The translations under genes were made by a program, and so were the position numbers. A stretch of 64,000 nt of DNA, from NCBI GenBank assembly GCA_903813345.2, contig CAIIXF020000001.1, positions 15,624,001 to 15,688,000 of the forward strand, written 5' to 3'. Shown here piece after piece: positions 3,481 to 54,373 of the stretch; position 1 is the first letter of the stretch, and each line of letters starts with the position of its first letter. The notes below the pieces were generated by a model. That model worked only from the letters and a program-made list of their open reading frames with translations, made no database searches and was not told where the DNA came from. This stretch comes from Owenia fusiformis (lineage: Eukaryota).

Positions 3481-3801
3481 AACCCTTCAAAGACTGTATC
3501 GTGTCCAACGTACGTGGGTAGGTGGGTATGAGGTAGGAGGTTTTTTATACAAAGCCCTCCATAAGTTTGACAACCTTTTTCCCATAGGCTTAAAGCCCCT
3601 CCATCATGTCTATGTTTATATTTTTATTTTCATAACCTGCAATGAAAAAACTGATAATGAAGGCAGTGATGTAATTTGACTTTATATCCCATACGTCCAA
3701 ATTTTTTCAATTTTTTCCTCAATAACAATAGTTTGAAAATGGCTTTGTATAAAAAACCTTATAACCACTTGTGTGGGTTGTAATACAGTCTTTGAAGGGT
3801 T
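3481..3801. mobile_element. MITE-like inverted-repeat element
   Basis: 19-bp TIR aacccttcaaagactgtat / atacagtctttgaagggtt, plus an inner inverted pair ttttttatacaaagcc / ggctttgtataaaaaa. No clean TSD. Confidence 0.55.
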
Positions 3802-3880
3802 TAATTACACTCAAATTATTTGTACTGTAAAATTTGTCAAGTCAAAGATTAAATTAGTTTTGAATATGTAAGTGTAATTG

Positions 3881-4337
3881 TGTGATGACCTTCGATAGCA
3901 AGCCGCTACTACAGTATTGTAGTGGCTAGCCCTTATGGCTCAGGGGTAGAGCATCTGACTCGAGAGCGGGAGGTCCTGGGTTCGATTCCTGTATGGGGCA
4001 TTGAGTTTAGCACATTCTCTTTCGAGTCTAGTATCTGGCTCGGTACACTACAGCTCCCCGACGAGTGTGCCCAAGGGTCGTTACATTGGTGTCAGAAGTG
4101 GGATTGCCCTTGTGAATCAGTTACGACGGGACGTCATCTTCTAGGGGGGGATGGTGTGATGACCTTCGATAGCAAGTCGCTACTACAGTCTCAGCTGTAG
4201 TGGCTAGCCCTTATGGCTCAGGGGTATAGAGTCTGACTCGAGAGCGGGAGGTCCTCGGTTAGCACATTCTCTATCGAGTCTAGTATCTGGCTCGGTACAC
4301 TACAGCTTCCCGACGAGCGTGCCCAAGGGTCGTTACA
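3881..4337 (+). mobile_element. Non-autonomous LTR retrotransposon in miniature (TRIM) with tRNA-containing LTRs
   Basis: 5' LTR 3881-4085 and 3' LTR 4155-4337, both TGT...ACA; PBS TGGTGTCAGAAGTGGGAT at 4087-4104; PPT AGGGGGGGATGG at 4143-4154; flanks ATTG / TTTG (3 of 4 match). Confidence 0.92.
3929..4000 (+). pseudogene. tRNA-derived sequence (Pol III A/B boxes) inside the TRIM 5' LTR
   Basis: GCCCTTATGGCTCAGGGGTAGAGCATCTGACTCGAGAGCGGGAGGTCCTGGGTTCGATTCCTGTATGGGGCA: A box TGGCTCAGGGG, D stem GCTC/GAGC, B box GGTTCGATTCC; acceptor, anticodon and T stems are mismatched. The scaffold resembles tRNA-Lys(TTT). Confidence 0.75.
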
Positions 4338-5281
4338 TTTGCTTAACTTTGGATGATAATTCACTATCGATTCCAAATCGAAAATTGATGACTTTGATGA
4401 ACATTTGAAAATGGTCATTCCAATGTAAACCAACAATGAGAAAAAGTGGGCTTGGGGCAAATCAGATTTCAGGATATCTATTCAAGAAAGATTAAACCAA
4501 AAAATTATTTTATATACAAAATTAAATTGCCTAACTTTTTGCATGCTAAGTATTCAGTAAAATTTTGTGTTAATAAATGTGTTAGATAAAGTGAGCAAAT
4601 TCAATTGTCTACTTAACTTGTATTTTTTTGTTAGATGGTAAGATATTTTATCATATGATTTGCAGCAAACCTACCATTTCCCATTGGTTTACTTGGGAAT
4701 ACTAGTATCGATTTTCAAAAATTCATCAATTTTCAACTTATTGTAATTGAGGAAAAAATTAGAAAATATGAATAAAGTTACATATAAAAAATCAAACACA
4801 GAGTGAGACTTTGACAGATAAACCTATGGGGAAAAAGGTTGCCAAACTTATGGAGGGGAGTGTACCTGTAATAAGAGATTCTTCTTTACTTAGAGATGTC
4901 TGAATTGACTTTATTGCTGTATTAGATTTCACACTTTTATATGCTATTGACAATGCAGTTTAAGAAGTTGCTCTTTCAGTTAAGCACCCATGGGCATTTA
5001 AATGGGAGGGTCTGCTTGCGATCTAGTGAAAAATGTAGGGTGACTTATAAGGATGAAATATACTGAATACACAATATATAGTGAGTGATGTACCAGTCTC
5101 ATGGTTTATATTCATTGGGTTTTCTCAGTTTCTTTTTTGTATATGAGTTTCTTACAATCCTCAGTCCTTCTTACAATGTGTCCTCTTTAGATAAACCATG
5201 GCAATTGCTATATGCATTTGTGAAATAAATGTTACTCTCTCTTTTCCAGTAGAATCCTGATCTTCTAAGAAAACATACAGC

Positions 5282-5578
5282 ATGTCTGAGAAAGAATGGT
5301 GGCGTGAAAAGGCAGAAGAGGTTGTGATTTACGCAGGGACACACCCGTATGAATTCATTTACTATGTACTGCTGTGCCTCTCCCCTTTCTTCTTCATATC
5401 TGCACTGTTATCATGGCAACTAGCAAAGCAAATAGAGCAAAAAGAAAGAGCAGAGAAAAAACAGCGCAGGAGAGACGCTAACATAGCAAAAGTAAAAAGT
5501 AAACAAAAAGCCTCAGCAGATAAAGCAGTAGCATCATCTGAAAAGGCGGCCAAGGAGAAAGGCTCAAAGGCAGACTAG
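5282..5578 (+). CDS. SMIM15: Small integral membrane protein 15 (98 aa)
   Basis: YAGTHPYEFIYYVLLCLSPFFFISALLSWQLAKQIEQKERAEKKQRRRDANIAK matches the SMIM15 pattern (human [54 protein letters not shown]). A splice acceptor ttttccag ends at 5249, implying an upstream 5'UTR exon that I could not locate. Confidence 0.92.
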   Translation: MSEKEWWREKAEEVVIYAGTHPYEFIYYVLLCLSPFFFISALLSWQLAKQIEQKERAEKKQRRRDANIAKVKSKQKASADKAVASSEKAAKEKGSKAD

Positions 5579-18606: not shown

Positions 18607-21600
18607 CTATGATGAATTAGATTGAGTAGTTAGAGTAGTTTTAATATCGTCTATTATATTGGAAAGTAAACTAGAGTCTGTGCTTTTACCATCTACGCTA
18701 ATTCCTTGATTTGCCTGAAACACAACAAAATATAGAATTACGCAGGTTCATCATATCTTGCTCATAGCAGGCCAATTGTACATTATTTGGAAAACTTTTA
18801 CACTGAAAAAAAGAAAAATTCCCAGAGTGCTTCATGTTTGATTCTCAAATGTTTACTTGAAAGTTATGGGAAGGGCTGTAAAAGACCAATGCTCATATTT
18901 AAATAAAGCATTATTTGGTAAATACATGTAGTGTGAATTAGTGATTTTGAGCAATCTTGAAGATGTTGTACTATATATACATGGCGTCAGCCAGAAGGCA
19001 ATTGTAAACTCACCAATTGTTTGACTAGCAGGCAGACATGGTGGCCTTGGATGGATCTACTGTATAATGATGCACTGTGGTCTATCTGCTCAACAACTAA
19101 AAGAAAAAACAATTAATTTTTTTTATCTAATAGTCTACATTTAACATGATTCAAGTGTTTTCATACAATTTTTCAACTGCCTGGATGAAATAGCTCATTT
19201 TCCATATTCTGACTAGGAAATGTTCAAAATCATTTATCGAAGGCCTCATTTCAAAATTTCAAACAAAATGACACTTTCTACTGCTTCAATTCTGAGGAGG
19301 TCAATGACAATTCTACCACTGTTTTTTTACCTCATGTGAAAGAATAAATGATTCAATTAATCATATCACAAAAAAGTAAAATATAAAATATTCTTCAACT
19401 TTAAAAAGCATACATTTATAATGTTGAACAGTACAGACTGTAATAGTGACTCACTTGTAAAATGATTATGAAAACATAGTTTGGCGATGACATGTGAGAA
19501 TTCACTGTCTACTGCATTAAATGTGCTGGAATATTTTTCATTTAAATCTCCACTACTAAGCAGTTCTGCAAAGGCATCACTGAAAGATAAAAAAACAAAA
19601 TATTTGTGGGAGTGCAATGTAATGTAATAACAATGCAAAACATGCAAAATATCACCACCAGCCATTTGTTACAGGTGTCGAACTCTGAACGCCAACCGCT
19701 GAATGCCATCACAAAAAAAGTTGGAGACCATAATACTATGTCACCACTTGTGGTGGTGTCACATAAAAAAGTCTCCAACACATTCCTGGAAGTTTTCAAC
19801 ATTCTTTGTGAAAAAGGACATTAATGTGACAATTTTGTACAATATTTTAAAAATTCCAGCTTACATTTTGAATTTCAATTTTTTATCAATGAAACAAAAT
19901 AATCTTAATGGTGGAATGAATACCTGACATACTGTTACATTCACTTTGGTCAGAGCAGTCTGCTCAGTAGATAAGGAATTATGTGATCGATTGATTTTGA
20001 TCATTTAAAATCCAGCATGAGAGTAGCTTTCACCTACCTATTACAGGGAGTTGCCAGGAGATATGAGCTACACGGTAGGGGAAGTTTGAAATCTAACTTC
20101 TCATGTGTCGATCCCTCTTCAGTCTGAAATAGAACAGTGAGAATAATTATAACCTAATGGAGTAATGCCTCTTCAATGGTACAGGGTACAGATTTCTGGT
20201 GTATGTGGACATTACACCGAATACAAGAAGCAGTTTTAGCAGATTAAAAATATTCAATCAAATGAAGTTACACAAAATATTGAAAATATGCATATATGTT
20301 GTATAATGTATACTCTCATAATGTGAATAAATCTGGCTTACCTTGACCATGTATGTGAGTGTACCCTTGAGTCTCTGTGGCATAGTAATGCTCTGCACAG
20401 TGAAGGCAAACTGACCCTCATTTTGTGAAGATGGAAGAAGTATAAATGGGACCTTGACTGGATCATGTGAACTTGCACCCACCTGGAAAATTAAGATTTT
20501 ACAATACAAAAATTTTACAATACGCATTTAACATGTGTACCTGACCCTCAATTGAACTTAGTCGTAATTTTGTTAGTTGTAGATGAGAATTTAAATAACA
20601 ATGCTCTATTTTACATGAATCAAGAAGTTTATAAGTTACTTGGCCAGACTGTTCATCATTTTGTTTATCTGCAAGTGCAACTGACAATGGATGGCACTTG
20701 CTATAAATAATAAAAAATCAGCTGAAGTCATAATAGACTATGATTAAGTTAGTCGAATTAGGACCTAACGCCTCTTGCTAGATGCACATTATAACCATAA
20801 GTTACTCACCCCCCTGACCAGTTTAGTGTTCATGGAGTCTAATACATTGAACTCCAGTTCTTTGATGTGATTGCAACTGAGGTTTGAAAGAATCACTGAG
20901 ACCACAACTTGGTTGGATTGTGCTTGGCTAACTCGCGTCTCATATGTCTGAAATACAAGAAATAAACATGTCACTGAGATGAATTAATTGTAAAAAGGAA
21001 CTGGGGGTTTATTAGACTCCTAAAGCTGTAGAGAATGAATAGCCTAGATGTTGTGTTTTAACTATGTCTGCCCCCCCCCCCCCACACCCATTTCTGTATT
21101 ACTTCTGGAGGTCATATTTTCATACAGGTAGTAGAAATTGGAATAAGTACATGAGTTCACAAATCAAGACGGGAGACTTTGATTTAACTTACCAGTTGAA
21201 CTGCATCATTCTTGCTAAGTAATTTGTAGTTTGTCATAGGCTGCAAATACAAGATTGAATTTTGTTTAACACATACAAAAGCATTCATATTCAACAACAT
21301 ATTCACGTTTTATGCTATGCTGAATCAAAACCAATTGGTTATCTAAAACATGATCAAATCATATTATAAGGGCTGATGTGAAAAAGTCATTCCACATCAT
21401 TGCTTTAAAATTCAGATCTCAAAAAAAAGTGACGGAAAATAGTCTGGAAATTGAGCAAAATGGTACCACTAGAAAGTTTGCATGCTTCATAGAATGTGAA
21501 GATCTAAATAGTACTGGGTCGATCTAGACTTACTGGAAGTGCTTGTTCTGGTTGTGGGGATGCTGCATTGGCATGTTCCTTAGATGGTGTAGTGATCCCT

Positions 21601-24600
21601 TCTGCTATCTCATAGTCACTCCTGTTCTTCTTTCGTTTCTTCTCCTTTTTGTGCTTTTTCTCCTTCTTCTTTTTACTTTTCTACAAGAAACAATGTGATG
21701 CTCTACATGTGTAGCAATAACTATAAGTGCTCACACCTGAAGATAAAGGTTAACAATGTAACAAAATCACAGACAACAGAACTCATCACTTTCATTTAAG
21801 GTTGTGAACTCCAGCTCAACCCAAATTGATTCCAGGCCCAAACTTGACCAGAATTGGAATTTTTTCGACCCATCTCACCTCTACTTAATTGGTAAAATAA
21901 ATTTCAGAAAAAAAGATTTGCAGACCAAATTCAGTAATTTAATAACAGGTTAATAATTATCAGAAGTTTCTTTATTCGATACTCCTTTTCATCATGTAAT
22001 TGAAATTATATTGTATGAATCTTTTGACAAATCTTGCTGTATTATTCTGTATACACGACTCAATACATCTTTATGATAGGACAAACCTCTTCTGGCTGTT
22101 CAGTATCAGCATCTGATCCATGCGTATTATTAACTGGTTCTTTAATGATTGGGATATCCTTTACTGGACTTTCAGCATCCTTCCCTGACAACCAGAAGTC
22201 TAGGTCATCCTCCTGAAAGAACATTTTATTCAGTATTGCTTCACTGTCATTTAATATACCTATTCCTCCTGAAATAATATTTTATTCATTGTTTTCTTCA
22301 CTGCCATTTAATATAGTATTCTCAACTGTTCACCAGTAGCCTGAGAACCTTGCTATCAAGTCTGATTACCTCACTTTAAAATGTGATTATTTCCTAATAC
22401 CCTTTTCAAAATCCTAACTTCAGGCTCATAATAAAGATCTTCGATAGTACTATGTATGATTAGATGATATAATAAAAAGATTAAAGCCCTTGATAGATGT
22501 AATTGTTTTGGTTAGATTTGATAACAAAATCTAGTTACCTTTTTACTGCCATTTATATCCCCATTGACTTGAGGTACTTCTGGTGTAATGCCATTGGTTT
22601 CTATGTGAGGCTCCCCTGGGGTTTCCTCAACTGCAGACACTAGCAGGCTGGGACTTTCTTCTGGTTCTTCACTGTCAATGCGCTTTTTCTTTTTCTCTTT
22701 GCTCTGGTATTCATAAATAATATGATTAAAGAATTATAGTCTTGCTCAAAGACTGTATCCACCCCCCCTCTGTCACCTTAAGGATAAAGGGGTCTTAAAC
22801 AGGGTCTTTTAAGCAAGACTAAAAGAATTATATTGGTTCAGATATTGTTCATCTTGATTTATTGGAGGCCTACAATTTATCAGGTATATCTTTGATTGTC
22901 CAATTTTAGGGAAATATAAAGAGGTACATCTGAAGAGCAGCATACTTGATCAATGGGCAGAAATTTTATGGTAAATATGTTTTTCAAGTAAACAAAACAC
23001 TGTATTCTCACCTTCTCTTTCTTTTCTTTTTTCTTCTTTTCTTTTTTATGTTTCTTTTTAGGTTTATCTTCAAGTGTAGCTTCATCTTCCCTTGGTTCCA
23101 GACCAACTACCCGATGCTGTCTCACTGGCAACCTTTCATCATCTCGCAATGGCCTGAATAAGTGAAATAATTTTCTCAATTGAAAAAGATAACAGTAGAA
23201 GTACCTTTAAAGTATCAAATTTATCTTAATTGCCTTGTTACTTATTTTCTCCACAAGATCTTTTAAATCACTGATTTGAATTTGAAAATTGTAGTATCAA
23301 ACTGATCGTTTAATCTTTGTCATTCTGAAGTCTACTTACTCATCAAGGTTCATATCTAACATGGCATATTGATCATTTCCTCTGTCAGTCTTGTCTTCTT
23401 TATCAGAGTCACCACCCTCTGGTTCATCTAGTACTGCACTAACATGGTGGACCACTGGGATATCATCTTCCTCCTCAGACTCTACAACCTAAACAATGCA
23501 TTTTGGGATATCATCTACCTCCTTTGACTTTACAAGCTAAACAATGAATTCTGGGATATCATCTACCACGTCTGACTTTACATTTGGGTGATTGGTGCAA
23601 TAACGGTCTTGAATAATCATGTTGGCTCCAGTGTCAATAGTCACAACTTGCTAATGACTGTTTCAAGGTGTTTTAGTTGTAACAATGAGAAAAATACAAA
23701 ATTTCACCTAGTGTTATGTTGAATAATGATAAATGGAGCTCTTTGTTTAAAGATAATATCAACAATATGACCTCATATAAACCTTTTGGTTAAAGCATTT
23801 ATTTTGGAAGGAGATTCATGAACCTTTCTTCATTATTTATAAGAAACGAAGACATCAAAATTCTGACTCGGTTTTTCATAATAAAGTTGAGATAAGTTTT
23901 CTTTGCTACTTGCAAGCACTATAAAATGCACAAAAATTTGTTTATTTACATGGCCCTTCTTGCTCCTTTTCTTCTTTTTCTTCTTGTCTTTCTTCTTCCT
24001 ACTTGCTGCATTCATTTGTTCACGTTGCATCTTTATGTACTTGTCAGAAGATGGCAGACCTACAACAATCAGAAAGTGAACACAAACCTTTACAGTAACT
24101 AATTGATTGAATTTACATCTTCAATTTTTTGGAATTCAATGGAATATTATATTTCTATCTCAACTTTAATTTCTTTACATGATAATAATTTAGTTCTAGA
24201 TATGGATGAGAATAATTTTGAAACAAAATTCAAAAAATTCTAGGCCACCCCCTCCTGCAAGGGTTGTTCCTATGGGGCAATTTTTGGGCATAGTTACTTT
24301 ATTTAAAGAGTATTCTGTGATAATTTAGGGAATTTTCAAGATCTGTTTCACAAGCAGCGATTACTTTACACTATTTATCCTGCTATTTAACATGTTTAAC
24401 TGAGAGGATGCCAAATAACAATTTTTTTATTATTTATTAAAATAGTTTATTATAGTGTCACTGGTTTACATTTGGTACAAATAAATACATATTCTAAAAA
24501 CCACCAGCCGATGTCGGCTTATGAGACACTGGACTTTAAAGGTCAATAATAACAGTGTATAGATATGACATTCAACAATAAAACTACAATTCATCTACGT

Positions 24601-27600
24601 TAATGCATAGATTGATAAATATTAATAATTCCATCTATAAGTGATGATAAATGATTTACATCTTGTGAGATAATGACTAGATTCTTGACTACAAAATGGT
24701 GTGGAGGTTAGGCCCTCACTGCAATAAATACAATACATAGGAATAATATGGCAAATTATTATACTGCAGTCAACCGTTCCAGGTCAAATTGCCTTTTCAT
24801 GAACATTTTGTACAACAGAGCAGCCCACTGTCTCTGAATTGATCTTGAATGCATTAGGCTTATAAATAAAAGTAACTCATTGTCAGTGTTTGTTCTTATA
24901 TGTGGTGTTAAAATATCAGTTACAGTTCTATAAAAATATGTTCTCAAGTTGGAATAATGTTTACATTGGACAGCAAAATGAATTTCATCTTCAACAAAGT
25001 TACCATCACATAATTTACATGTACGATCATTTAGTGCTGTATTTGACCAACGACCTGTCTCAATGTGAAGTGGGAGGCTACCTGTTCTCAGTCTAGCAAG
25101 AATGGTTCTGTGATGCCTTGGAATGTATTCAGACACATATGGTCAATGCACTAAATTGGATTAGCTTGTAGCCTCGATAATAGATGTTCCACTTACCAGG
25201 AATATGTAATGGCACCTCTAATGCTAATTCTGCTACTTCTGGTACATCTTCATAAGCACCTCTGCTATTGACTAGTGTCTGCAAGTAAAACAGTGGATAA
25301 TTATGACCAACAAGATACCTTGATAGTCTTCTGCTTAAGACATTTATTGTACAATTATCATTATCTTAAGTTTTTTATTGGATAATAAATCTCTATTTTG
25401 AAGTAGAAGATGAAACAACCAATGTCAGCTCATTCTGAGAAAATCTCCAACAAAATAATTTTTAATAACTAGAAAACAGCAACTCCACAGAGTAGCAAAT
25501 TCCACTTAACAAAACATTTTGATAATAAGTGGCCATCTTGAAAGTTTCTTCTTGAACAGAACATATAAAATTACCAAATCCAGCCCACTGATACTTGAGT
25601 ATCAAAGATTATGTTTTTTCTGAAAAATGGCAGCCGTTTTGATATTCAGCACCATCTTGAAAATTCTTTCTCAAACAGAGCTTCTGTGTCCCTGGGCATC
25701 AGCATATAAAATTTGACCCGAATTCGTTCACTGGTATTTGAGTTATCATTACGTTTTATTTTTACTAAAAATGGCCACCATTTTGAAATGTATCAGCCAT
25801 CTTGAAAATCTCTTTGGACAGATTGCTTTCCTATATCCCTCTCGCACCTCGTTCGGTGGGATAAAAAGATAAGATTCCAGAGAATTAGCTGAAAATGTAC
25901 CTTAGGTCTACTGGGCCCCTTCAGGTAGTTAGGATTGTTCTCTTGCTCCATTTTCCGTGCTTCCCTTTGCTAGAAACAACAAAAGTGTAAATACAGAAAT
26001 AACTCCAAGAACCAGTCATGACAGAAATTAGAGAATACAGAGGACAAATTTATCATTATGCCCCCGTGTCTCATTATTAAAAGTCTTTGTTAAAAAAATC
26101 TGCAAGAATTTGTTTTCCCAAAATTGTATGTCAAGAAATAAAGTCAACAAACACAAGGCATTGGTTCTTTACAAGATTCTAAAATTAACTACATGGTATT
26201 TTCAGATACCCTGTATGAAGATTGGGATATGGCCCCTTACCTTAGATAATTCCTCTGCAGTAGGTTGATAAGACTTCTTCTCTTCAGACTGGAAGTTGGA
26301 CCTGTGTTCATCTGATGGCATGAATATATTGGGAGTTGGCCCCTCATCTTCTGAGCTTTCTGAGGGCGGATCATTAATCCATTTGTCTAAATTTAACCTA
26401 AAAGTTCAAAACAATTCATTGGTTAAATCTACCATAAGACTGCCTGCAAATATGGTAAAATATATATAGGGCTTTCAAGCACTAATAGCAAGAGGACATT
26501 TATTGTGGACAGCTCATAATCATTTTGTTGTTTACAATAGGACTTCTTGCATATTCCTCACTGAACTATAATTTATTGAAATTTATGGGAGATTATTCAA
26601 TGCATTCACAATGGCTAGAATAACAAGGCATTAACATGCAAAATGTCACCATCTGCCATTTATTACATACACCAAACACCAACCGCTGTTCACAAAAAGT
26701 TCGAGACCGACTATAACTTGATGGTAGTGGTAGTGACATAAAAATCTGAGAGTTAACAATGCCAAACCATACATTGATATCTTACCCTTCAGGGACTGGC
26801 ACTTTCTTCTGTGCTTTTGCAGCTACGGGGTTTAGTTCCCCTGCAAAGAGTGCAGATACCTCTTCCCCTACAGCTACTCCCTTGTCTTGAAGCTTCACCA
26901 CATACTTCATTAGTTGTAATATACAGCAAGCCTAAAACAGAAGTTCAAGTAAAATATGTGAACCAGCCAGTAAAATTGAAGCCACAAACAATGTATGAAA
27001 ACAAACACAATCTTTTTTGTTCAGTTCCAGCTAGTCAAAGGAAATGATGGTCTGGCCCAGGGAAGTCTAGCTGACCTAGATGGGTGAATCAGATGTTTTT
27101 GAATGTCCTACTAATTTCAGAACCAATGGCATCTCAAATGTACATATTCCAGTCCACCCTGATCTATTTATAGTCATAATAGATTAAGACTCACCCTCTC
27201 CTGCACTTCTAAATCAGCACTCTGAACAAACAGGGGTAGTTTCTCTATAATAAGTTGTGCTGCCTCTTTAGAGTCATCGAGGTTCTCATCAGCTTCCCCC
27301 TTCACCAGGATGCTGGAGTATAGCTTGATGAGGTTCTGGACATAGATGCTCTGTATGTGACCTGGTAGCTGAGTCACCTTGGGCCGCAGCATGGATTCTA
27401 GTGTCTGCTTGGAGTTGGGCAGATGCCTGTTATGTAATGTTCACATATTACTGTCCTTGGAAATGATATTTCTAGTGGCTTCAAGTGAACACTTTAATCA
27501 TTTGGGGTTCGAAATGGTAGTGTTCACAGAATATTCAAGATAACATTAAATTGAAGCTTGTCAGAATTTAACATAATAATGTCTTATGGTGCAACTATAT

Positions 27601-30600: not shown

Positions 30601-33600
30601 TTATCAACCAGATTGTCTACAGCCGCTCCTTATAATATAATTGGACCATGTGACTAAATTCCATATACTGATATATCAGATCAGGAAAGTGTTTAAAGGG
30701 TGACGCATATCGTTTAGCAAATCGAACGCTCGTTTCTGGTGTTGCTCACCGTTTAGTATAAAAGGCCCGATCCCGGAATAATACTCAAGGGTTCACAGGT
30801 TCGAGCTCGTTGTGTCAACACCTCTAACTGTTATATAGCATAAGTATATTATAGATCGTCACACATTTATAAAAGGGTGATTTTTATTTTGACAAATCAA
30901 TTCCACATTTATGGGTGAAGTTTCAGGATCTTCTATTTGTGTACAATAAGGAAAAATTGGCATCTAAATTTCCCCATAACGTAATAGCACACAGCTTGGC
31001 ATATGAAATATCCTACAAATGAAACAAAGCAAGACAAACCGGTTTCTAATACAAGGATTTATATTGGCTGTTGTACATGTATTCTTTGAACGCAATCACT
31101 TTTTGGATAACGTTTTCAAAATCATTAAAAACGGATTACTTTATCTCAAAGACAATTTCAATAAACTGGATTTTACAGAACTCCCCTTATTTCTTAAAAA
31201 TGGACTGATCCAGTTGATTCGCCTGGAGCCGCCATATTGTTTTTATACGGGATGCTAATCGGAACCCTTTAAGGAGTAAATAATAAACATTTATAACACA
31301 TTTGCAATAACGCACATGCGAGTAGGTAGTTACCAGTTTCACCACTAGGTGGCTCGCTCGGGTCAGATAGCATGGCGGGTAAAGTAGAAAGTTCCCTTTA
31401 ACTTAAATTAAATCTGTTTTAGTGGTTTGATTTTCATATCACCCTTATGTATCTAATAGTTATGCAAATTAAAATATCTCCAATAAAGGAAAATGATATC
31501 CGTCTAATACAAGAAAAATTATTTCAGTTTTTGTGATTTTGTAACATGGGGTCTATGGGGAATCAACCCGAACTAGAAAAAAAAATTAAATTTTCAAAGT
31601 TGATAAACAATTTTCGAAACCATATTTCTAGATGTACTTTTACATGTAGATTCCAAATATGACATCAATTTGACTGAATTTCGAATATTTAATGATGTAA
31701 GTAAAGATTATTTCTACTCACATCTACTCTATTGCTTATAGGGCTAGAGATGGTACATGAGTACAAAAGAAAAACAAATATAGGAGACCACGGGATAACC
31801 TTGCTAGAGCAGTACGGGCAATGAGACAAGGAATGGCAAGTCGTGTAGCATCACAAACCTTTAACATCCCAAGGATGACATTGAGAAGGTAACTATTTTA
31901 TTCCATATTATCTGTTGTATTCCATACCTACTGTGGTTCTAGGTACATAATAACGAGCGGGAATATTTAGGGTAAGCCATCTTGGGAGCTATCGCCAAGG
32001 TCTGAACCAGGATGGACACAGGCTTTATCCATCCCAGTCCAGCTCCTGAAAGGTGAACTCTGTTTACGTTTTACTCAATTTAAAAACTATATTTCAAACT
32101 AATGCTACTTTTTCATGAAGTTCAAAAATTAAAAAAACGTACTTTCGCCTTGGGTACGCATTTTCTTAGTCTTAAAAAGTAGATTTTAAGTTTGTGAAAT
32201 TTTCACAATCTTATATTGCTGGAGCAGATTAATGAATTGATATTTTCCCTGGAGATATAGAGATTATCCTATATGAGGTTCAGTATATTTCGATTATCCC
32301 GAGGACAATATAATATATCTGCCCGAGGGGCGTATGTACCTGAAACAAAATATGGGATAAGTAGATTTATCCCATACTTGGACGTGTTACAGGTACATAA
32401 AGCCGGTTTGTAAAAACTTATATTTTCATCAGCGGGCAGATATAGCTTTACGTCCCGCTCTGAGCAGGCAGATATAGTATATCTGCCTGCTACGTCATAA
32501 TCACTGCTCGCATATTTGTTCATAATTTGTAACCTTCGTGTAATGACTGTAAACGACAATCTGGAGAAAACAAAGACAATAGAGATCTGTTTTATTGTTT
32601 AAGGAGCATCCACTTAATCAATCAAAAATTATAAAAATAATATGGGAATATTTGACAGAACAGGAAAATCCACCCACGGCCAAGAAAACAAAATTGGACA
32701 TGAATATTCTAAAATATTTCCACGATTGAACAATGTGAACCAGATGACCAAGATTGGTATGGGATAAACATATTATCCTATAGTCGGTTCAGGATATTGG
32801 GATTATCCCTTGGCCAATATAATATATTTTCCCTCGGGACCTGCGACCCTCGGGCAAATATATTATATTTGCCTCTGTATAATCCCAATATCCTGAACCT
32901 CATATAGGATAATCTCTATATATCCCCAGGATAAACTCTATATCCAAAACCTCTTAAAAAATAACTCTTATATATTGCATACTAGGCCCTAGTATGCAAT
33001 ATATAAAAGTTATTTTCTAAGAGGTTTTGGATACAGAGGTTTTTCTGGGGATATATTTACTTATAGGGTAATTATTTGTAGCATAGACTTATCATTGAAA
33101 ATACATTGTCACGTTATAAAGTGACATTTTGTATTAATTAGGGACTTTGTATCTTTCTATTTTCAGGCACAAAGCCTTGAATGTATCGACTCCTGGCTCA
33201 GTGACATCAGGGCGATTTATACCAGTGTTTCATCAATGATTTGAAGCTCAACTAGCGACCAATATCATAACTCTTCAACGACATCTCCATGGGATAACCC
33301 CTGTCCAGACGAGGGCGTTAGCCTTCGATTTGGCTGAACACAAGGGAATCCAACACCCGTTCAATAAAGAAAATAAGATGGCCGGGAGAGACTTGCTGGC
33401 GCGCTTTCTTTCACGCACCTCTCTGAGTATAAGGAAACCGCAGCCTACTTCTTTTAACAGAGCAAACGGGTTTACCAAGGAAGCTGTAAAGAACTTCTTC
33501 CAAATATATGAGGAAGAACTTCATGAACATCCAGAAATTCGCGCCGACCCTACACGAATCTATAACATGGATGAGAGTGGTATATCTATTGTACATCGGC

Positions 33601-36600
33601 CAGAATGTGTTCCCATGATGGGGTCACGGCAAGTGGAAAAGCTAACTTCTGGCGAGCAAGGCAGAACGGTTACTACAAGTGTTTATGAATGCCGCTGCAC
33701 TGATTTACGGTCAGCGCAAAGCCATTCCACCAAGAATGATGATTGGTGCGCCAGCGAATACTCTGTTTTTGTGTAATGACAGTGGGTGGATGACAAAGGA
33801 TTTGTTCCCTTTGGTGTTGGAGCAACACGCTCAGTACGCTAAGTCTACACCAGCGAGGAAAACAATCCTTATATGAGATGGACATGATCTCATATCAGTT
33901 TAGCGTCAATTCTGAAAGCCAGGGAATTGGGAATAGTGATGATAATGCTACCTCCACACACTACCCATAAAATGCAGCCTCTTGATCGAGTTTTCTTCGG
34001 GCCATTGAAAGCAAGATTAGACACCGAATGCGATAGGTTTATGGCAGACAATCCAGGCGTTCCAATTACACCTTATGAACTTGCTGCACTCTTTGGACAA
34101 GCTTACAGGAGAGTATCGACCCCCGATAAAGGCCCGAGCGGATTCCATGTAACAGGACTGTATCCCTACAATCCCAATATTTTTGAAGATGACAATTTTG
34201 CATACAACGATGATGCATATGTAGATGGCAATACCCCCCCCCCCCTAAAAAAACTTTCTACGGTGAAAGGTGTAATGCCTCCTGCTAAAGATGATAACGT
34301 TAGTGTCCACCAACATGATCTGTCATCAGTGAAAGGCGTAGTGTCTCCCGGAGCATCAAATGCATCCCCCTATCTAATTCTTTGCCCTGAGTTCCGGAGC
34401 CCCTGACAACAGCAATGATCAACACCATGCCTTCTATTGAAGAGAACTAACGTCACGCTACAAACAGAATCACTCCTTCAAATACGAGTCTGTCAGATGG
34501 CAAACAGCCGCATCAGTTTTCCTTCTTTAGAAACACCAGTCAAGAGAGCAATTCTTCCGGGATAAATACAAACGTGTTTTACAAGAAGGCCAACACCAAC
34601 AAAGATGAAAACATCCATTTTGCAAGTGTTCTTGCTGATTTGTCACCTATACCGGCAAAACGAAAGCAATCTAAATACAGCGATAGGAGGGGAAAGGCGT
34701 TAATTGTCACGAGTTCGCCATTCAAAAAACAACGGGAAGAAAAGAAAGAAAAGAAAAAGTACAAGAAATGAACAAAGAACAAAGCGCAAAGAAGAAGCTT
34801 ATGCTGAGCTCTAGCATAACGGATAAAGCTAGCACAACAGGGCACTGAGAAATACAGTGACCCACCAACTGAAGATTGAGTGCAGTGTCCCTCCTGTAAA
34901 GAATGGATGCATGAAGCATGCAAAGATCCAGACTCAATCTGTTGTGACTTTTGCAAAGTCTAGTTTGTGAGACTCAACCATGCATGATCAGCAGCATCGA
35001 TACAATTCCATTACAAATTTGTTACAATAAATAATGTTTTGAATCCTGAACTGAAGTTTTAGTTGCTGGTTTGAAACACTCAGAATAGAACGAGGAGGTG
35101 ACAGTTTAAAACCCCTGCAACATCTGACAACATTTCACTTATAAAATACTTTGCATCAAGGAGTGAAAAAACATATAATGGTAGTAATTCCTGGAAATAT
35201 ATAAGAACAAGTGATTTTCAAATACAAGGATTTAAACATTTGGTTTGTAGCTTATTCCCCTCCAACACGTATCATGACTAGTATTGTTGTTATGGTTAAG
35301 AATTCACTGCCTGTACGTTTAACTGTTTAGAAGTTAAGATAAGATTTGTGTGGACGAGTCGTATAATTGATTAATCTTGATTTTAAAACCCACGTATGAA
35401 AGGTGGGCCGTTTTGGCCCAACCATGGGCCTTTTTGCCCCACTCTCTAAATTATCTTTGATCGCTGAAATATTCAAGAAGTCTTAGACTCGTCTAGAACA
35501 CTCGAAAAATGTAAAATACAACACAATGATAAAATGAGACATCAAGGAGCGCGATGACTGACGAATAAGAAATGCCTCTGAACGGAAGAAATTCGAATTT
35601 TATTTTGAGGGCAGCTTTGCCCCATGTTCCCTTACAGTGTAGTTAAGTTCAGGTACTTACAATTCTGGTCCGAGTCTTCAATGAGAATTCTCAACTTCTG
35701 AACACACAGCTAAAAGAAAACATAAAAATACTACTATAAACAATGGGGCACATCTCTGGCTCAATTAATGTACTTATACAAATATGTAATATATTTTGTA
35801 ATTATCAATTTGAAAATCATGTATTTTGAATTCTTAAAAGAAGAAGTCATATTACAACTACTATTCTTAAGTTAACTATAATGTGCAAAATAAAGTCTAG
35901 TAAATACAACATATTGTTCAATATAGACTGCGGACTATTCTGTAGAAGTGCTCTAGAAATGGATCTCGCTTTTCATGGAAGGTCACACATTCCAACATAT
36001 TTCAAACAATTTGTATGATTATAATAGACACTTTCTGGGTAGTTGGACTTTATGTAGGGGTGGCAGAAGGCCCTCAGGCCAATTTATACCCCTACCACAA
36101 CAAAACCTTGGGGGTACTTTAATACCACCCAATAAAAATAATACTAATGCATATCAGATATTCATCGTTTTATAGTGGGTAGGGCATGCCATGGTTAGTC
36201 AGTGCCAGAAATTTCCAATCTCTGACTTATATGGTTACCATGGAAACAGTATTTATATCTCACAATCTTCTCAATTTGACCCCGTCCCAAATGTGTCCTT
36301 AAGTTCTCAAAGTGAAATATTTGCAAATCTGTTTGGATTTTGTGGCTGCAACTTTGTCAAAATTTGAATTAATATGTATGTATTCACACTATAGCACTAA
36401 AAACTTGATATAATGATCTCATAAATTATAATATTTATCAAATGTAGTCACACACAACTGCTTTTAGGGAAAAGTGGGCGTGGCACTTTTTGGTACCTGT
36501 GTAATTGTTGCAGCATTAAATGAAAAATACTTATTACACTAACAACAATTGACATTTAATTAGCATCTACTAACATTGTGTAACATTGTAGTATGTTCAT

Positions 36601-48600: not shown

Positions 48601-51600
48601 ATAAAGATGGTGTGCTTGATCTATTCTATGCAGTTTTGAATGCATTTAGCCTGAAATGACAATATCAGGTGTTTTATTAGCAGTAGGCAACAGGCGATTT
48701 TCACCAGTTGTTTTCAGAAAATCATCTGTTGTTTTAGGGACTTTTCAACGTTTCCATAATTTATGTTTTCCATTAATTTTGCCTGTTGTTTTTATTTATT
48801 TAGCCTGTCGTGAGAAATTCTAGTGAAGCTCCTGTAACATATAAGCGCGGCCTACAGCATTCTTTCACTGACCTGACAACCATTTGTAGTTATATAAGGT
48901 TCAAATGGCTTTAATGTATAATGGTGAAATCTAAAAGTTAAAGCGTAATAAATGAATCTAAAAGATCATTGACAATGACGAAATTATAATATAATCAACA
49001 AGCTAAACAAAAGACAATTTTCAAACTAAGGTGGATTATATAAAGAGATGTCACGGTTTCCCAATATTAGACCGTGTTTTGGTCAAGATGGTTCAGTTTG
49101 CGATAATGGACAGAAAGGGTTAATATCAGGACTGTTAATATCAGAGCTGTCTTGGGATAAGCTGTCTTAGGGATGAGTTGTCTTAGGTATGAGTTGTCCT
49201 GTTACCATTATCAGTATGGTGTCCTGTCCTGTAAGCGCTATGTCCCGAGATCATTTGTACTGTTCCATCCCGTGACACGTCTAGGATCATATATAATTAC
49301 TTTTGTGAATCTGCCACTGCTAAACTCAACATCATATTTTACATTGTTTATTTTACTATAGAATATGATGATCATTTCAGTAAAAATTGTGACCTTACCC
49401 TACGAAAATGGAAATAATGTTTCACAGCTAGTTTGGTACGCAATACTACATTACAGAGTCTCTAGGAAATTGATTATACTTTGTAAAGAAGACAATTATA
49501 CACCTGTGGATAGAAGAGTTAAAAAGCCTTGGTGAACTAACCTCCTTTGTTTATCTTCGCCAAAATTATAAATTAAAGTAAAAAAGTTCATAACTTTCTA
49601 AAACTTCAATAATTAGGACTGATTAAACTTATTGGCTATGGGTATTATATTCTAACTTGTACACTAACTGACCAAGTCAGTGTCGTTCATTCGTAATTAG
49701 TGTTGTCTCGATTAATCGATACATCGCGATGTACATCGCCAAAGCTGATTCTGGCGATGCATCGATGTCTGAAACAAAACATCAATGTTTTTTTTTAAAA
49801 ATTAATTTGCTAAAAATCACCCTTTCTTATCTTATTTTGACGCAAATCGCTTACCTTTCTCATGTCTTATTTCATTTTCCTTGATGTTTTCTGATAATCT
49901 TTCGCTTTAAAACTGTTTTAGCTAGTCGAAATGAACCATTAATCTAAAAAAAATAACTTACTTTCATTTCACCGTTACTAGAAGTTCCAGGATGTACCAG
50001 CGTACTCTTATTAATTTGTTATGTTCGGTATTTTAGTGCATTAGCGTTTCGGTATTTCAGTGCACTTTTCTCGGACATTTTCCAGCGATGTACATCGCGA
50101 TGTACATCGATGTTTACTACTAAAAATTGCCGATACATTGCGACAACACTATTCGTAATAACCTTATTCACCAGTAAAAGACATTTAATCCAAAGCCACA
50201 TGTTACCAAGAAATGCCTCATGCATAAGATATCTCCGTGGATGAGCCATTCTGTGGTAATTCAAATAAAGGACCCACAGTGCTGTGCTCACACAGTGTTT
50301 GTGCAGCCGATGATGATTGACTTTATACATGAGAAAGTTCCCTGAAAATGACAGTCCTACTTTTTGTCAAATTTTATAGAGTAAACATGAAAAACTGTAA
50401 CAAAGTGTATAGTTATTACAGAAAATTTGACTTTTTGACGTCAAAATCAGCAATATCTCGGAAACTGGGCGAACTTGGGAAATGGCGATAATAGGTCAAA
50501 TATGCATTAGAATGTGGATATGACTAAAACCTAATGTTGACGGACGGTCCAACGGACCGATAGACGCCTGTTCGATCCCATAGGCTCACAAACCATTAAA
50601 AAAAAGGGCTCCATTACAAGCGTATTAAAGGCCACACTGTGGCCAAAGAATAAGGTAACATGTACCCTACATCCCTATTCCATACAAGCCTGACATAACA
50701 CATATTAGATAAATTTCTAGAGTAATTGGAGGAATATGCGTGGAAGTTAAACCTATCACAGGTCACAAGATATGTCAGATAATAAATAAGGTGCAGACAT
50801 AGATCCCGGCCAGATTCTTTTGTAGTAGAATCAGTAGCTCAATAATATTTCCTCAAGATGAGACACCTCAGAAAATTTCAAATTTTAAAATGACGATTCT
50901 GGAGCCATTTCTGAAAAATATGAGACAAATCATACCTCATTCGAAGGGTCTTGTTATTCTTTACCTTTATTATCACCAATGGCCGTTATTCAAGCAATAC
51001 TGCGTTGATAAGAGGCCAAAACAGTGATATTTTATCGCCGGACTCTTGTCTGTCCAAATCTGAATGTTGCTCCCATGGTTCTAGAAATGTGACGTCATCA
51101 TTACAATGATATTTGGACACACAAGAGTCCGGATTTCGTGAAAAATATTCACCGTATTGAAAGTCAAATAACTGCATCCATAGGTAATTTACTCGAACCA
51201 AACAAGTAGAAATAGAAAGATGAAGATCTCAGCTATAAAATAAGTGCAAAATCTGTCACAGGGAAACAGGTACCATTTTGTATAAGGAACGTTTTGAAAG
51301 GTAGTCAGTTTTTTTTCGAAATTTTCCAATTTAGTGTCGTATCTTCTGTATTATTCTTTGAGCCTATGATCCTACTACAAAACGATCTGGCCAATATCTG
51401 TGGGTGCAGACTAGGTTTACTTGTTGAACTGCTGTAGACTTCCTGCTCAGTCTCAGTCTCACACACTTATTTTCCATTTTAATTTTTGACATAACCGGAC
51501 ATAATGAGATTTGGAGTATTATGGTAAGATCCATAAGCCCAAACTATATAGACACCAATCTACAACATGCAACACCTAACGGTTTTGGCTATCGAGTTTA

Positions 51601-53622: not shown

Positions 53623-54373
53623 CACCCTATGCAGACAGAGCCTGTGGGAAATATTGGGTGCGGCGCAAATGAGCGGGGGTGCGGAGCTAACAGTCATTTT
53701 TGAATTTAAAATTGGGATATTTCTGAAACTAAGCCGTTTTGGGACTTCAAATATACCAAGATAGGTTTATTTGACACCAAATATCAATAAAATTGTGAAA
53801 ATAGTAGTGCAATTCATTTTATAGCGACGCAGATGCAAATTATTTTTGCATCTTGGAAGCCAGGCAGTATCTATGTGATTTTATAAAAATTCGGAAATGT
53901 TCTTCAGATATGAGCCCCCTCTAAATATTGGGTGCGGAGGTACGTTTATGGAGCTCCTCCGCACCCAATATTTAGAGGGGGCTCATATCTGAAAAACATT
54001 TCCGAATTTTTATAAAATCACACAGATACTGCCTGGCTTCCAAGATGCAAAAATAATTTGTATAGATAGTGTACCTTGAACACCATTTTTTATGAATGCT
54101 GGGGACTCAGTATTAAAAGGATAATTTCAAAATATATAGGTCTGGAAAAGGTTTAAGGCACACTGCGTCGCTATAGAATGAATTGCGCTACTATTTTCAC
54201 AATTGTATTGGTATTTGGTGTCAAATACACATATCTTGGTATATTTGAAGTCCCAAAACGGCTTAGTTTCAGAAATATCCCAAATTTAAATTCAAAAATG
54301 ACCGTTAGCTCCGCACCCTCCGCTCATTTGCTCCGCACCCAATATTTCCCACAGGCTCTGTCTGCATAGGGTG
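53623..54373. mobile_element. Palindromic (foldback) non-autonomous element
   Basis: Arms 53623-53940 and 53956-54373 are near-perfect reverse complements around a 15-nt loop; the right arm has a ~100-bp insertion; CAC...GTG ends; ATATA on both flanks; partial copy near 60700-60965. Confidence 0.8.

What the first reader, a model, noticed from the sequence alone, without database searches (positions are those of the whole stretch)
3881..4337. Miniature LTR retrotransposon whose LTRs carry a tRNA-derived Pol III promoter (SINE-LTR hybrid)
Seen: two TGT...ACA direct repeats (205 and 183 bp) separated by only 69 bp. That spacer begins with TGGTGTCAGAAGTGGGAT and ends with a polypurine tract. Each LTR has a short hairpin (ctacag...(c/t)tgtag) followed by a tRNA-like segment, with intact A and B boxes in the 5' LTR. 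Known: this PBS is complementary to the 3' end of eukaryotic tRNA-Leu (...ATCCCACTTCTGACACCA); plant Cassandra TRIMs carry 5S rRNA in their LTRs; from memory, tRNA-in-LTR TRIMs have been described as Helenus, with 4-bp TSDs in animals, which fits ATTG/TTTG here. Inference: a non-coding element that uses one tRNA as promoter (Lys-like scaffold) and a different one as RT primer (Leu), mobilised in trans by a Gypsy-type partner. The class may be known; this family and host may not be.
Basis: partly seen in the sequence, partly recalled or inferred. Interest (0 to 1): 0.85.

Follow-up and report, generated by a model that had tools for sequence, protein, structure and literature searches.

The report
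Miniature LTR retrotransposon with tRNA-like LTRs
This is a 457-base non-coding LTR retrotransposon whose terminal repeats carry a tRNA-derived promoter-like segment, a kind of element described in 2024 as Helenus, here found at high copy number in an annelid worm, a phylum where it had not been reported.

Summary
Window 3881-4337 is LTR (205 bp), 69-bp internal region, LTR (183 bp). The LTRs are TG..CA-bounded and 170/179 identical, with two indels. [quoted passage not shown] It ends in a polypurine tract. The 5' LTR holds a tRNA-like segment (Rfam tRNA 32.1 bits, cutoff 29) with box A and box B. The 3' LTR has lost box B through a 26-bp deletion. Contigs of three public runs show a high-copy family. 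In each run, 22-37 contigs lose likeness to the window exactly at the LTR's last base and 32-36 at its first, with unrelated flanks. This fits Helenus, the tRNA-bearing TRIM of Kojima 2024. Host genes point to the annelid Owenia fusiformis. Annelids are absent from Kojima's host list, and my literature searches found no annelid report. Not shown: Pol III transcription, the Gypsy partner, a clean 4-bp TSD (3 of 4 here), the Lys-like origin.

The parts
3877..3880 (+). left flanking tetramer ATTG (putative 4-bp target site duplication, left copy)
   Evidence: Read directly. It matches the right tetramer at 3 of 4 positions. The LTR start at the next base is fixed by the loose ends, which were laid at the equivalent base 4155.
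3881..4085 (+). 5' LTR, 205 bp, TG..CA, with imperfect 12-13-nt terminal inverted repeats
   Evidence: In one search the contigs of 3 runs lose likeness exactly behind 4085 (31, 37 and 22 contigs; flank agreement 0.42). The whole LTR folds with z -3.54 and its two ends pair with each other.
3901..3927 (+). hairpin just upstream of the tRNA-like segment (9-bp stem); the 3' LTR counterpart is 4179-4204 (11-bp stem)
   Evidence: -14.5 kcal/mol, z -3.17 for the 5' LTR; -17.0 kcal/mol, z -4.29 for the 3' LTR. The two LTRs differ in the loop only.
3929..4000 (+). tRNA-derived segment (degenerate, probably not a working tRNA)
   Evidence: ARAGORN calls it with anticodon cga and labels it Ser, but there is no long variable arm. 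Rfam RF00005 scores 32.1 bits against a cutoff of 29, with mismatched pairs in the stems. The MFE fold is not a cloverleaf, z -0.13.
3936..3946 (+). box A-like motif TGGCTCAGGGG (also at 4214-4224 in the 3' LTR)
   Evidence: Regex scan, using a consensus recalled from memory. The TRGCY part agrees with the Helenus box A description.
3979..3989 (+). box B-like motif GGTTCGATTCC (5' LTR only)
   Evidence: GGTTC is the conserved Helenus box B core.
4087..4105 (+). primer binding site, 19 nt complementary to the 3' end (with CCA) of tRNA-Leu(CAA)
   Evidence: Identical to the first 19 nt of the mouse tRNA-Leu(CAA) probe printed in PMC7997516. Unique in the window.
4143..4154 (+). polypurine tract AGGGGGGGATGG, abutting the 3' LTR
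   Evidence: Read. The 3' LTR start at 4155 is fixed by the loose ends (32, 33 and 36 contigs).
4155..4337 (+). 3' LTR, 183 bp, with a 26-bp deletion (between 4258 and 4259) that removes the T-arm and box B
   Evidence: Alignment and counts. In one search, joints from 4226-4245 back to 3972-3973 show that other copies keep the deleted stretch.
4338..4341 (+). right flanking tetramer TTTG (putative TSD, right copy)
   Evidence: It matches ATTG at 3 of 4 positions.

Best explanation
The element is a decayed copy of a high-copy, non-coding terminal-repeat retrotransposon in miniature (TRIM) of the Helenus type, sitting in the genome of the annelid Owenia fusiformis. Each LTR has three parts: a 48-bp leader with a hairpin, a 72-bp tRNA-derived segment, and an 85-bp tail.

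Shown here:
- the LTR-PBS-PPT-LTR anatomy;
- the tRNA-like segment with boxes A and B;
- a PBS matching tRNA-Leu(CAA);
- many genomic copies that share the same LTR ends.

Inferred:
- The element is copied by the reverse transcriptase and integrase of an autonomous LTR retrotransposon. For animal Helenus the literature suggests Gypsy.
- First-strand synthesis is primed by tRNA-Leu(CAA) at the PBS, and second-strand synthesis starts at the PPT.
- The template RNA is probably made by RNA polymerase III from the internal box A/box B promoter of the 5' LTR. That would explain how an LTR with only about 48 bp upstream of the start, no TATA box and no poly(A) signal can still be transcribed.
- Because the sense strand has no run of four or more T, such a transcript could run through the whole 3' LTR. 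That would supply the terminal redundancy needed for strand transfer.

This copy is old: the LTRs are 5% diverged, with two indels. Its locus was not detectably transcribed in the one RNA run examined.
For: Anatomy: searches give LTRs of 205 and 183 bp, TG..CA ends, and a 69-bp internal region.

PBS: 19 of 19 nt equal the start of the printed tRNA-Leu(CAA) probe, 1 nt after the LTR. The PPT abuts the 3' LTR.

tRNA-like segment: Rfam tRNA scores 32.1 bits against a cutoff of 29, and ARAGORN calls it too. Box A and box B start 43 nt apart.

Family:
- Summed contig depth in LTR bins is 8e4 to 2.5e5 in the DNA runs X1 and X2, against 45-160 in the unique flank bins 3822-3895 and 4340-4376. The tool warns that this is not a copy number.
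- 58-92 contigs per run cover single LTR positions, for example 80/86/82 at 4005, against 1/1/3 at flank position 3839.
- Loose ends lie exactly behind 4085 (31/37/22 contigs) and before 4155 (32/33/36), with flank agreement of 0.42-0.43.
- The internal region is also multi-copy, with depth 9e3 to 4e4 in X1 and X2 and 20/24/15 contigs at 4136.

Fit to a Pol III reading: there is no T run of 4 or more on the sense strand, whereas 84% of composition-matched shuffles have one. There is no TATA box and no AATAAA or ATTAAA.

Literature: the Helenus definition, the 311-1263 bp size range, the 4-bp TSDs in animals and PBS sharing with Gypsy come from PMC10886601.

Host: the AP3D1 exon is 77 of 77 identical to a protein named Owenia fusiformis, on a contig of the same length as the window's own.
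Against: No Pol III evidence was found. In RNA run X21, 0 of 556 laid reads are 99% or more alike to this copy, 84% of what was laid runs on into unlike sequence, both strands are covered, and no start or end pile-up appears. That pattern suggests passive read-through of other copies, and a cDNA RNA-Seq library may in any case miss Pol III products.

The absence of T4 runs is only weakly unusual, since 16% of shuffles also lack one.

The flanking tetramers match at 3 of 4 positions only, and TSDs of other copies could not be tabulated because no genome is held.

Box A reads GGG where Kojima describes YGG.

The tRNA-like RNA does not fold as a cloverleaf on its own.

No autonomous partner with this PBS is present in the window.

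Confidence: 0.8

Rival explanations
1. This is an ordinary TRIM in which the tRNA-like segment is only a fossil of an old SINE insertion into the LTR. Transcription would come from Pol II or from host read-through, and boxes A and B would play no part. By Kojima's structural definition the element would still be called Helenus, but it would not work as a Pol III element.
For: There is no evidence of a Pol III start. RNA reads cover both strands and mostly continue into unlike sequence. The tRNA segment is degenerate. Kojima himself says the Pol III function of Helenus is not validated.
Against: Only 48 bp lie upstream of the tRNA-like segment. There is no TATA box, no poly(A) signal and no T4 run on the sense strand. 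Boxes A and B are intact in the 5' LTR at the normal tRNA spacing. None of the 40 best-supported variant positions listed (80 more were not shown) falls in box A or box B. That last point is weak: 4 listed positions fall in the 72-nt segment.
Confidence: 0.17
2. This is a non-autonomous KolobokP-type DNA transposon. Such elements have long terminal direct repeats, each with its own terminal inverted repeats. They form LTDR-INT-LTDR monomers, solo repeats and multimers, and they are reported from Owenia fusiformis.
For: KolobokP is listed for Owenia fusiformis, and it mimics the LTR/solo/multimer patterns with TSDs of 3-5 bp (PMC9587614). The LTR here does have imperfect 12-13-nt inverted ends.
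Against: Kolobok termini are 5'-RR..YY-3', whereas these are TG..CA. A 19-nt exact complement of a tRNA 3' end placed 1 nt after the first repeat, and a purine tract abutting the second repeat, are the hallmarks of reverse transcription. A DNA transposon gives no reason to expect either.
Confidence: 0.02
3. This is a chance local tandem duplication of a tRNA-derived SINE and not a transposable unit with LTRs.
For: Only one copy is present in the 64-kb window, and the TSD is imperfect.
Against: Many contigs in three runs lose likeness exactly at the two LTR ends with unrelated flanks. Likeness does not start at the tRNA head, and no A-rich tail is present. The PBS and PPT are in the canonical places.
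Confidence: 0.01

Closest known systems
Helenus (tRNA-bearing TRIM; TRIMp3 of Kojima 2024, PMC10886601)
   Same: Two short LTRs each hold a tRNA-derived segment with box A (TRGCY) and box B (GGTTC). A tiny non-coding internal region has a PBS complementary to a tRNA 3' end and a PPT. Total length is 457 bp, within the published 311-1263 bp range. The flanks are compatible with the 4-bp TSD of animal Helenus. The PBS tRNA differs from the tRNA-like segment in the LTR. The family is high-copy, with more LTR than internal sequence.
   Different: The host is an annelid. [quoted passage not shown] The tRNA-Leu primer is reported for hymenopteran and vertebrate Helenus but not for bivalve Helenus. 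Sequence relatedness to any named family could not be tested, because Repbase and the supplements were not available.
Cassandra (plants) and Ajax (nemerteans): TRIMs with a 5S rRNA-derived Pol III promoter in the LTR
   Same: The design is the same: a small-RNA-gene-derived internal promoter inside each LTR of a TRIM. Ajax also uses a tRNA-Leu PBS. Cassandra is the only one with transcription shown to start in the 5' LTR promoter and end in the 3' LTR.
   Different: There is no 5S rRNA match in the element or anywhere in the window. The captured gene here is a tRNA. No Pol III terminator (T4 run) is present in the LTR, whereas Cassandra keeps the 5S terminator.
tRNA-derived SINEs (SINE2)
   Same: It has a tRNA-derived head with boxes A and B followed by an unrelated body. 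Kojima proposes that Helenus arose when a SINE2 inserted into a TRIM LTR.
   Different: There is no A-rich or LINE-derived tail. The unit is bounded by TG..CA, is duplicated as LTRs, and carries a PBS and PPT. It therefore depends on LTR-retrotransposon enzymes, not LINE enzymes.
Retrozymes (non-autonomous LTR elements with hammerhead ribozymes)
   Same: Both are small non-coding LTR elements with a functional-RNA-like motif inside the LTRs (mentioned).
   Different: No hammerhead or other ribozyme match at E up to 1 in 3500-4800, or at E up to 5 in the whole window.
KolobokP non-autonomous DNA transposons
   Same: Both have direct terminal repeats with short inverted ends around a short internal part, and KolobokP is present in the same host species.
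   Different: The termini are TG..CA rather than RR..YY, and a PBS and PPT are present.

Membership tests
Helenus (TRIM with tRNA-derived sequence in its LTRs) | Two direct LTRs bounding a short non-coding element (TRIM size; the screen used under 1000 bp, and the published range is 311-1263 bp) | tested here: met
   LTRs of 205 and 183 bp, internal region of 69 bp, 457 bp in total. Size criteria.
Helenus (TRIM with tRNA-derived sequence in its LTRs) | tRNA-derived sequence inside the LTR | tested here: met
   Rfam tRNA 32.1 bits against a gathering score of 29 at 3929-4000. ARAGORN call at the same coordinates. The 3' LTR copy is truncated by a 26-bp deletion.
Helenus (TRIM with tRNA-derived sequence in its LTRs) | Conserved box A (TRGCY ... 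YGG) and box B (GGTTC) | tested here: met
   TGGCT and GGTTC are present in the 5' LTR. The second half of box A reads GGG, not YGG, so the match there is partial. Box B is missing from the 3' LTR.
Helenus (TRIM with tRNA-derived sequence in its LTRs) | PBS complementary to a tRNA just downstream of the 5' LTR, and a PPT just upstream of the 3' LTR | tested here: met
   19 nt equal the tRNA-Leu(CAA) probe start, 1 nt after the LTR. AGGGGGGGATGG abuts the 3' LTR.
Helenus (TRIM with tRNA-derived sequence in its LTRs) | 4-bp target site duplication in animals | tested here: inconclusive
   ATTG and TTTG match at 3 of 4 positions. With LTRs 5% diverged, one decayed site is plausible. Other copies could not be tabulated.
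Helenus (TRIM with tRNA-derived sequence in its LTRs) | Dispersed repeat family with the same LTR ends (solo LTRs and full copies) | tested here: met
   loose ends at 4085 (31/37/22 contigs) and at 4155 (32/33/36) with unrelated flanks. LTR depth exceeds internal-region depth, which in turn far exceeds the unique flanks.
Helenus (TRIM with tRNA-derived sequence in its LTRs) | Sequence relatedness to a named Helenus family in Repbase | not testable with these tools
   Repbase is not available and the supplementary tables of PMC10886601 are closed. Paper searches for a 16-nt part of the PBS and for a 24-nt stretch of the tRNA-like head found no TE paper.
TRIMp3 (TRIM transcribed by RNA polymerase III) | Transcription from the internal small-RNA promoter by Pol III | not testable with these tools
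   Only a cDNA RNA-Seq run could be laid. It showed no start pile-up and no reads 99% or more alike to this copy. Sequence features are compatible with Pol III, but compatibility is not a test.
Animal Helenus dependence on Gypsy | An autonomous Gypsy element in the same genome sharing the PBS region | not tested
   No genome is held, and no second PBS match exists in the window.
Cassandra / Ajax | 5S rRNA-derived sequence in the LTR | tested here: not met
   No 5S rRNA match.
KolobokP non-autonomous transposon | Termini 5'-RR..YY-3' on each terminal direct repeat | tested here: not met
   The repeats start TG and end CA. Criterion.
tRNA-derived SINE (SINE2) | A single unit with a tRNA head at its 5' end and an A-rich or LINE-like 3' tail, with no PBS or PPT | tested here: not met
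   There is no A run of 3 or more anywhere in the element. Copies start 48 bp upstream of the tRNA head at TG. A PBS and PPT are present.

The most novel reading that the evidence does not exclude
This could be the first Pol III-type TRIM (TRIMp3) lineage of Annelida. On this reading it arose independently when a tRNA-derived SINE was captured in a TRIM LTR in the oweniid lineage, and it amplified to something like a thousand LTR copies. It would use a terminator-less LTR, so that the Pol III transcript reads from the tRNA-like +1 of the 5' LTR through the whole 3' LTR. The terminal redundancy would then be about 157 nt (tRNA-like segment plus tail), against the 18 nt described for Cassandra. 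The conserved hairpin just upstream of the tRNA-like segment could be a family-specific signal that lies in the RNA only at its 3' end.
Probability: 0.35. Interest if true: 0.45.

Novelty: new member of a known kind. Interest (0 to 1): 0.3.

Why it matters
Helenus-type elements were named only in 2024, and their Pol III transcription has never been shown. An abundant family in Owenia fusiformis would add a seventh animal phylum to the host range and support repeated SINE capture by TRIM LTRs. Owenia is a laboratory annelid with a chromosome-scale genome and published chromatin-accessibility data. That makes it a tractable animal in which to ask whether the tRNA-like boxes recruit Pol III/TFIIIC.

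There is also a practical side. Copies like this one are called as tRNA genes by ARAGORN and Rfam, so the family will inflate tRNA gene counts in annelid annotations. LTR_finder/RepeatModeler pipelines such as the one used for this genome may misfile it as a SINE or as unknown.

Tried and rejected
- **Whole-genome search and genome file.** Copy census, TSD table, solo-LTR counts and a partner search were therefore impossible.
- **Exact-pattern scans for other copies.** A 28-nt LTR-start pattern gave 0 hits in metagenome contigs and 0 in viral contigs. A 22-nt LTR-middle pattern gave 0 in metagenome contigs and 0 in genome contigs (one search did not complete because the machine was busy). These collections are not expected to hold annelid DNA, so the blanks say nothing.
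- **Earlier findings of this scan.** Searches by place, by sequence and by words found nothing relevant.
- **Protein search with the stop-free pseudo-ORF across LTR-PBS-PPT-LTR (3889-4197).** Meant to catch miscalled ORFs on other copies; no candidate was found.
- **RNA holders.** No RNA holder was listed by the look-up of sequencing runs for this stretch. The three rows marked as guessed RNA are Logan contigs and may be DNA.
- **Paper searches with typed stretches.** A 24-nt stretch of the tRNA-like head gave 0 papers.
- **Isotype of the tRNA-like segment (Lys-like).** ARAGORN's 'Ser(cga)' label does not fit a tRNA with no long variable arm.
- **Whole-window Rfam at E up to 5.** No second tRNA-like copy, no 5S and no hammerhead.
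- **Pfam on six long ORFs for host identification.** Only weak DDE_1 and MPS-4 hits. The host came instead.
- **Sharing of the insertion between samples.** Only X1 record 1 (3731-3946, 0 differences) bridges the 5' junction with 31 or more letters on both sides. X4 records 17 and 24 reach only 29 and 17 letters into the LTR, so they do not count.
Full report
**1. The observation**

Reading 3600-4700 and running the repeat finder confirm two direct repeats, 3881-4085 (205 bp) and 4155-4337 (183 bp). Both begin TGTGATG and end GTTACA, and 69 bp separate them. A global alignment gives 170 identical positions out of 179 aligned (K2P 0.052). It also shows two indels:
- four extra bases in a hairpin loop of the 3' LTR;
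- a 26-bp deletion in the 3' LTR that removes the T-arm of the tRNA-like segment.

Blastn of the element against the window finds no further copy.

The internal region reads T, then TGGTGTCAGAAGTGGGATT (4087-4105), and ends AGGGGGGGATGG (4143-4154), directly abutting the 3' LTR. The 18-nt PBS motif occurs once in the window even with 3 mismatches allowed.

**2. The tRNA-related parts**

ARAGORN and Rfam (RF00005, 32.1 bits, gathering score 29) both call 3929-4000 as tRNA-like. It is the only such hit in the window, even at E up to 5.

The segment has TGGCTCAGGGG at tRNA positions 8-18 and GGTTCGATTCC 43 nt further on. These correspond to box A and box B; the consensus patterns I used are recalled, and their cores agree with the description. 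Several stem pairs are mismatched. The anticodon label does not fit the arm structure. Alone, the RNA does not fold as a cloverleaf (z -0.13). It is therefore a tRNA-derived relic and not a tRNA gene.

Just upstream lies a hairpin that is kept in both LTRs, with differences in the loop only (z -3.2 and -4.3). The whole LTR folds better than all 200 shuffles (z -3.5), with its two ends paired. I have no tested function for either structure.

The PBS assignment rests on print. The methods of PMC7997516 list a probe for mouse tRNA-Leu(CAA) whose first 19 letters equal window 4087-4105 (I saw that passage only). Since the probe is the complement of the tRNA's 3' end including CCA, the PBS is complementary to tRNA-Leu(CAA).

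**3. Is it a family with these boundaries?**

No genome is held for the window. I therefore laid Logan contigs of two DNA runs (X1, X2), one run of guessed kind (X4) and raw reads of one RNA run (X21) on 3600-4700 at 85% likeness.

| Region | X1 / X2 / X4 |
|---|---|
| Unique flank bin 3822-3858, summed depth | 159 / 108 / 35 |
| Unique flank bin 3859-3895, summed depth | 140 / 154 / 14 |
| Unique flank bin 4340-4376, summed depth | 82 / 45 / 16 |
| LTR bins, summed depth | about 8e4 to 2.5e5 in X1 and X2; up to 6e4 in X4 |
| Internal bin 4081-4117, summed depth | 26,933 / 39,101 / 9,759 |
| Internal bin 4118-4154, summed depth | 8,715 / 15,680 / 2,752 |
| Contigs at LTR position 4005 | 80 / 86 / 82 |
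| Contigs at internal position 4136 | 20 / 24 / 15 |
| Contigs at flank position 3839 | 1 / 1 / 3 |

The tool warns that summed depth is not a copy number, so I read it only as "hundreds to thousands of copies".

Most telling are the best-supported loose ends. They lie exactly behind 4085, the last A of the LTR (31/37/22 contigs), and exactly before 4155, the first T of the LTR (32/33/36 contigs). The loose parts have median lengths of 96-170 nt and only 0.42-0.43 agreement, which means unrelated, AT-rich flanks. So many copies share the TG and CA ends. No comparable loose end is listed at the start of the tRNA head, which speaks against a free SINE family of the same sequence. Only the best-supported loose ends are printed, though, and 1075 are not shown.

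Joints from 4226-4245 back to 3972-3973 show that other copies retain the 26 bp missing from this 3' LTR. Insertions CTGC or CAGC behind 3917 in some contigs show that the longer hairpin loop exists elsewhere.

LTR depth exceeds internal depth by more than 2:1. That is what solo LTRs, or divergent internal regions, would give.

**4. Expression**

In X21, of which about 6% was read, 556 reads were laid. None is 99% or more alike, and 35 are 95-99% alike. Of what was laid, 84% continues into unlike sequence. Both orientations are covered, and no start or end pile-up is reported. The unique flanks have depth 0-1.

This copy is therefore not detectably transcribed there, and the reads from other copies look like parts of longer host transcripts. 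This neither supports nor excludes Pol III transcripts, which such libraries capture poorly.

**5. What it is**

The anatomy is that of a TRIM: two LTRs, a tRNA-complementary PBS one base after the 5' LTR, a PPT abutting the 3' LTR, and no coding capacity. The tRNA-derived segment inside the LTR puts it in the group that Kojima (2024, PMC10886601; I read the abstract, Results, Discussion, tables and legends) named Helenus and, together with Cassandra and Ajax, TRIMp3. Three points agree with that paper:
- the size (457 bp against 311-1263 bp);
- the box A/B cores;
- a PBS tRNA unrelated to the LTR's own tRNA-like segment.

The flanking tetramers ATTG and TTTG are compatible with the 4-bp TSD of animal Helenus but match at only 3 of 4 positions. 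With LTRs 5% diverged, one decayed position is unsurprising. By my own rough estimate a 3-of-4 match would also arise by chance in roughly 8% of AT-rich pairs, so I count the TSD as inconclusive.

**6. How it most likely works**

Shown: the cis signals for reverse transcription and integration (PBS, PPT, TG..CA), and multi-copy dispersal.

Inferred from the established LTR-retrotransposon cycle and from Kojima's comparison: an autonomous element, Gypsy in other animals, supplies RT, RNase H and integrase, with tRNA-Leu(CAA) as primer.

Inferred, at about 55-60%: the RNA is made by Pol III from the box A/B promoter. One search gives four arguments:
- only 48 bp of LTR lie upstream of the tRNA-like +1;
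- there is no TATA box and no AATAAA or ATTAAA;
- there is no run of four or more T on the sense strand in 457 bp, whereas 84% of composition-matched shuffles have one;
- the first T4 run downstream at this locus is at 4508.

A transcript starting at the tRNA-like +1 of the 5' LTR and reading through the 3' LTR would carry about 157 nt of terminal redundancy for the first strand transfer. The 48-nt leader would then be restored from the 3' LTR. All of this is compatible with the data but untested.

**7. Rivals**

(a) Ordinary TRIM with a fossil SINE, transcribed by Pol II or by host read-through. This cannot be excluded (0.17). It differs from the main reading only in how the element is transcribed.

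(b) KolobokP. A literature search turned up DNA transposons with long terminal direct repeats that occur in Owenia fusiformis and mimic LTR, solo and multimer patterns (PMC9587614; passages). Their termini are RR..YY, and they have no reason to carry a PBS or PPT, so I reject this (0.02).

(c) Chance duplication of a SINE. This is contradicted and by the PBS and PPT (0.01).

(d) Cassandra or Ajax, and retrozymes. There is no 5S and no hammerhead match.

**8. Host and novelty**

The SMIM15-like ORF at 5282-5575 lies on a contig of 62,201,769 bp in the protein collection. The AP3D1 exon at 27177-27440 (minus strand) is 77 of 77 identical to a protein on a contig of the same length that NCBI names Owenia fusiformis. 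The host is thus the annelid Owenia fusiformis or something nearly identical to it.

Kojima's host list has six animal phyla without Annelida, and the text has no occurrence of annelid, Owenia, Capitella or polychaet. Three searches found no annelid TRIM or Helenus report:
- 'Helenus' or 'TRIMp3' from 2024 on (24 papers, of which 20 were listed, and among the listed ones only the original, a meeting report, a sugar-beet paper and an rDNA review concern TEs);
- 'retrotransposons in miniature' with 'annelid' (2 papers, neither on this topic);
- 'non-autonomous LTR' with 'annelid' (3 papers, none on this topic).

The Owenia genome paper annotated repeats with RepeatModeler, RepeatMasker and LTR_finder. 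The passages I saw do not mention TRIMs, and its supplementary tables and repository were not visible. Repbase may hold annelid entries that I cannot see.

On this basis the element is a new member of a known kind. The class, design and proposed mechanism are published, while the host phylum and probably the family are new.

**9. Verdict**

Confidence is 0.8 for a Helenus-type TRIM, and about 0.55-0.6 within that for Pol III use. Interest is 0.3. A specialist would not be surprised, but the family widens the host range. It sits in an experimentally tractable annelid where the untested Pol III claim could be examined. It also matters for tRNA and repeat annotation.

Noticed in passing
window 3555-3592 vs 4819-4857, and 3701-3740 vs 4729-4769; also 3674-3747 and 4562-4700: The TRIM sits between two pairs of roughly 40-bp inverted segments (92% and 88% identical). 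The flanks at 3674-3747 and 4562-4700 are themselves very high-copy repeats, with summed depth up to 5e5. It probably landed inside or between MITE-like or foldback repeats.
   Followed up: partly
window 3663 to 4381: One contig each in X1 and X2 joins 3663 to 4381, skipping 717 bp that include the whole TRIM (depth 60-66, shorter side 31 letters). This could be a paralogue of the flanking repeat or an allele lacking the segment. It is too weakly supported to interpret.
   Followed up: no
window 5282-5575 (+): A small ORF encodes a small integral membrane protein 15 homologue (PF15086; 29 hits, the best non-self at 65-70% identity). It lies about 0.95 kb downstream of the TRIM on the same strand.
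   Followed up: partly
window about 19000-27500 (-), e.g. 27177-27440: Exons of an AP-3 complex delta subunit gene. One exon is 77 of 77 identical to an Owenia fusiformis protein.
   Followed up: partly
window 33240-34403 (+): Two adjacent stop-free frames of 178 and 172 aa look like remnants of a pogo/Tigger-type transposase. The Pfam DDE_1 hit is weak (E 0.0012, 18.9 bits, below the cutoff of 22).
   Followed up: partly
window 24762-25142 (-): A 127-aa frame with a Cys/His-rich tail looks by eye like the C-terminal end of a non-LTR (LINE) ORF2. It was not searched.
   Followed up: no
window 57604-58938 (+): A 444-aa stop-free frame, very rich in Ser/Thr with tandem-like repeats, followed by a hydrophobic stretch and a basic tail. 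It looks like a mucin-like membrane protein exon and has no Pfam hit.
   Followed up: partly
window 53889-54007, 51029-51141, 32798-33038: Near-perfect palindromic hairpins match miRNA precursor models on both strands but score far below the gathering thresholds, for example mir-3158 at 57.8 bits against 97. They are most likely MITE hairpins and not conserved miRNAs.
   Followed up: no
window 3889-4197 (+): A 103-codon stop-free frame runs from the 5' LTR through the PBS and PPT into the 3' LTR. A protein search found nothing. It is probably a by-product of the GC-rich sequence, which lacks runs of three or more A and has few T runs.
   Followed up: yes
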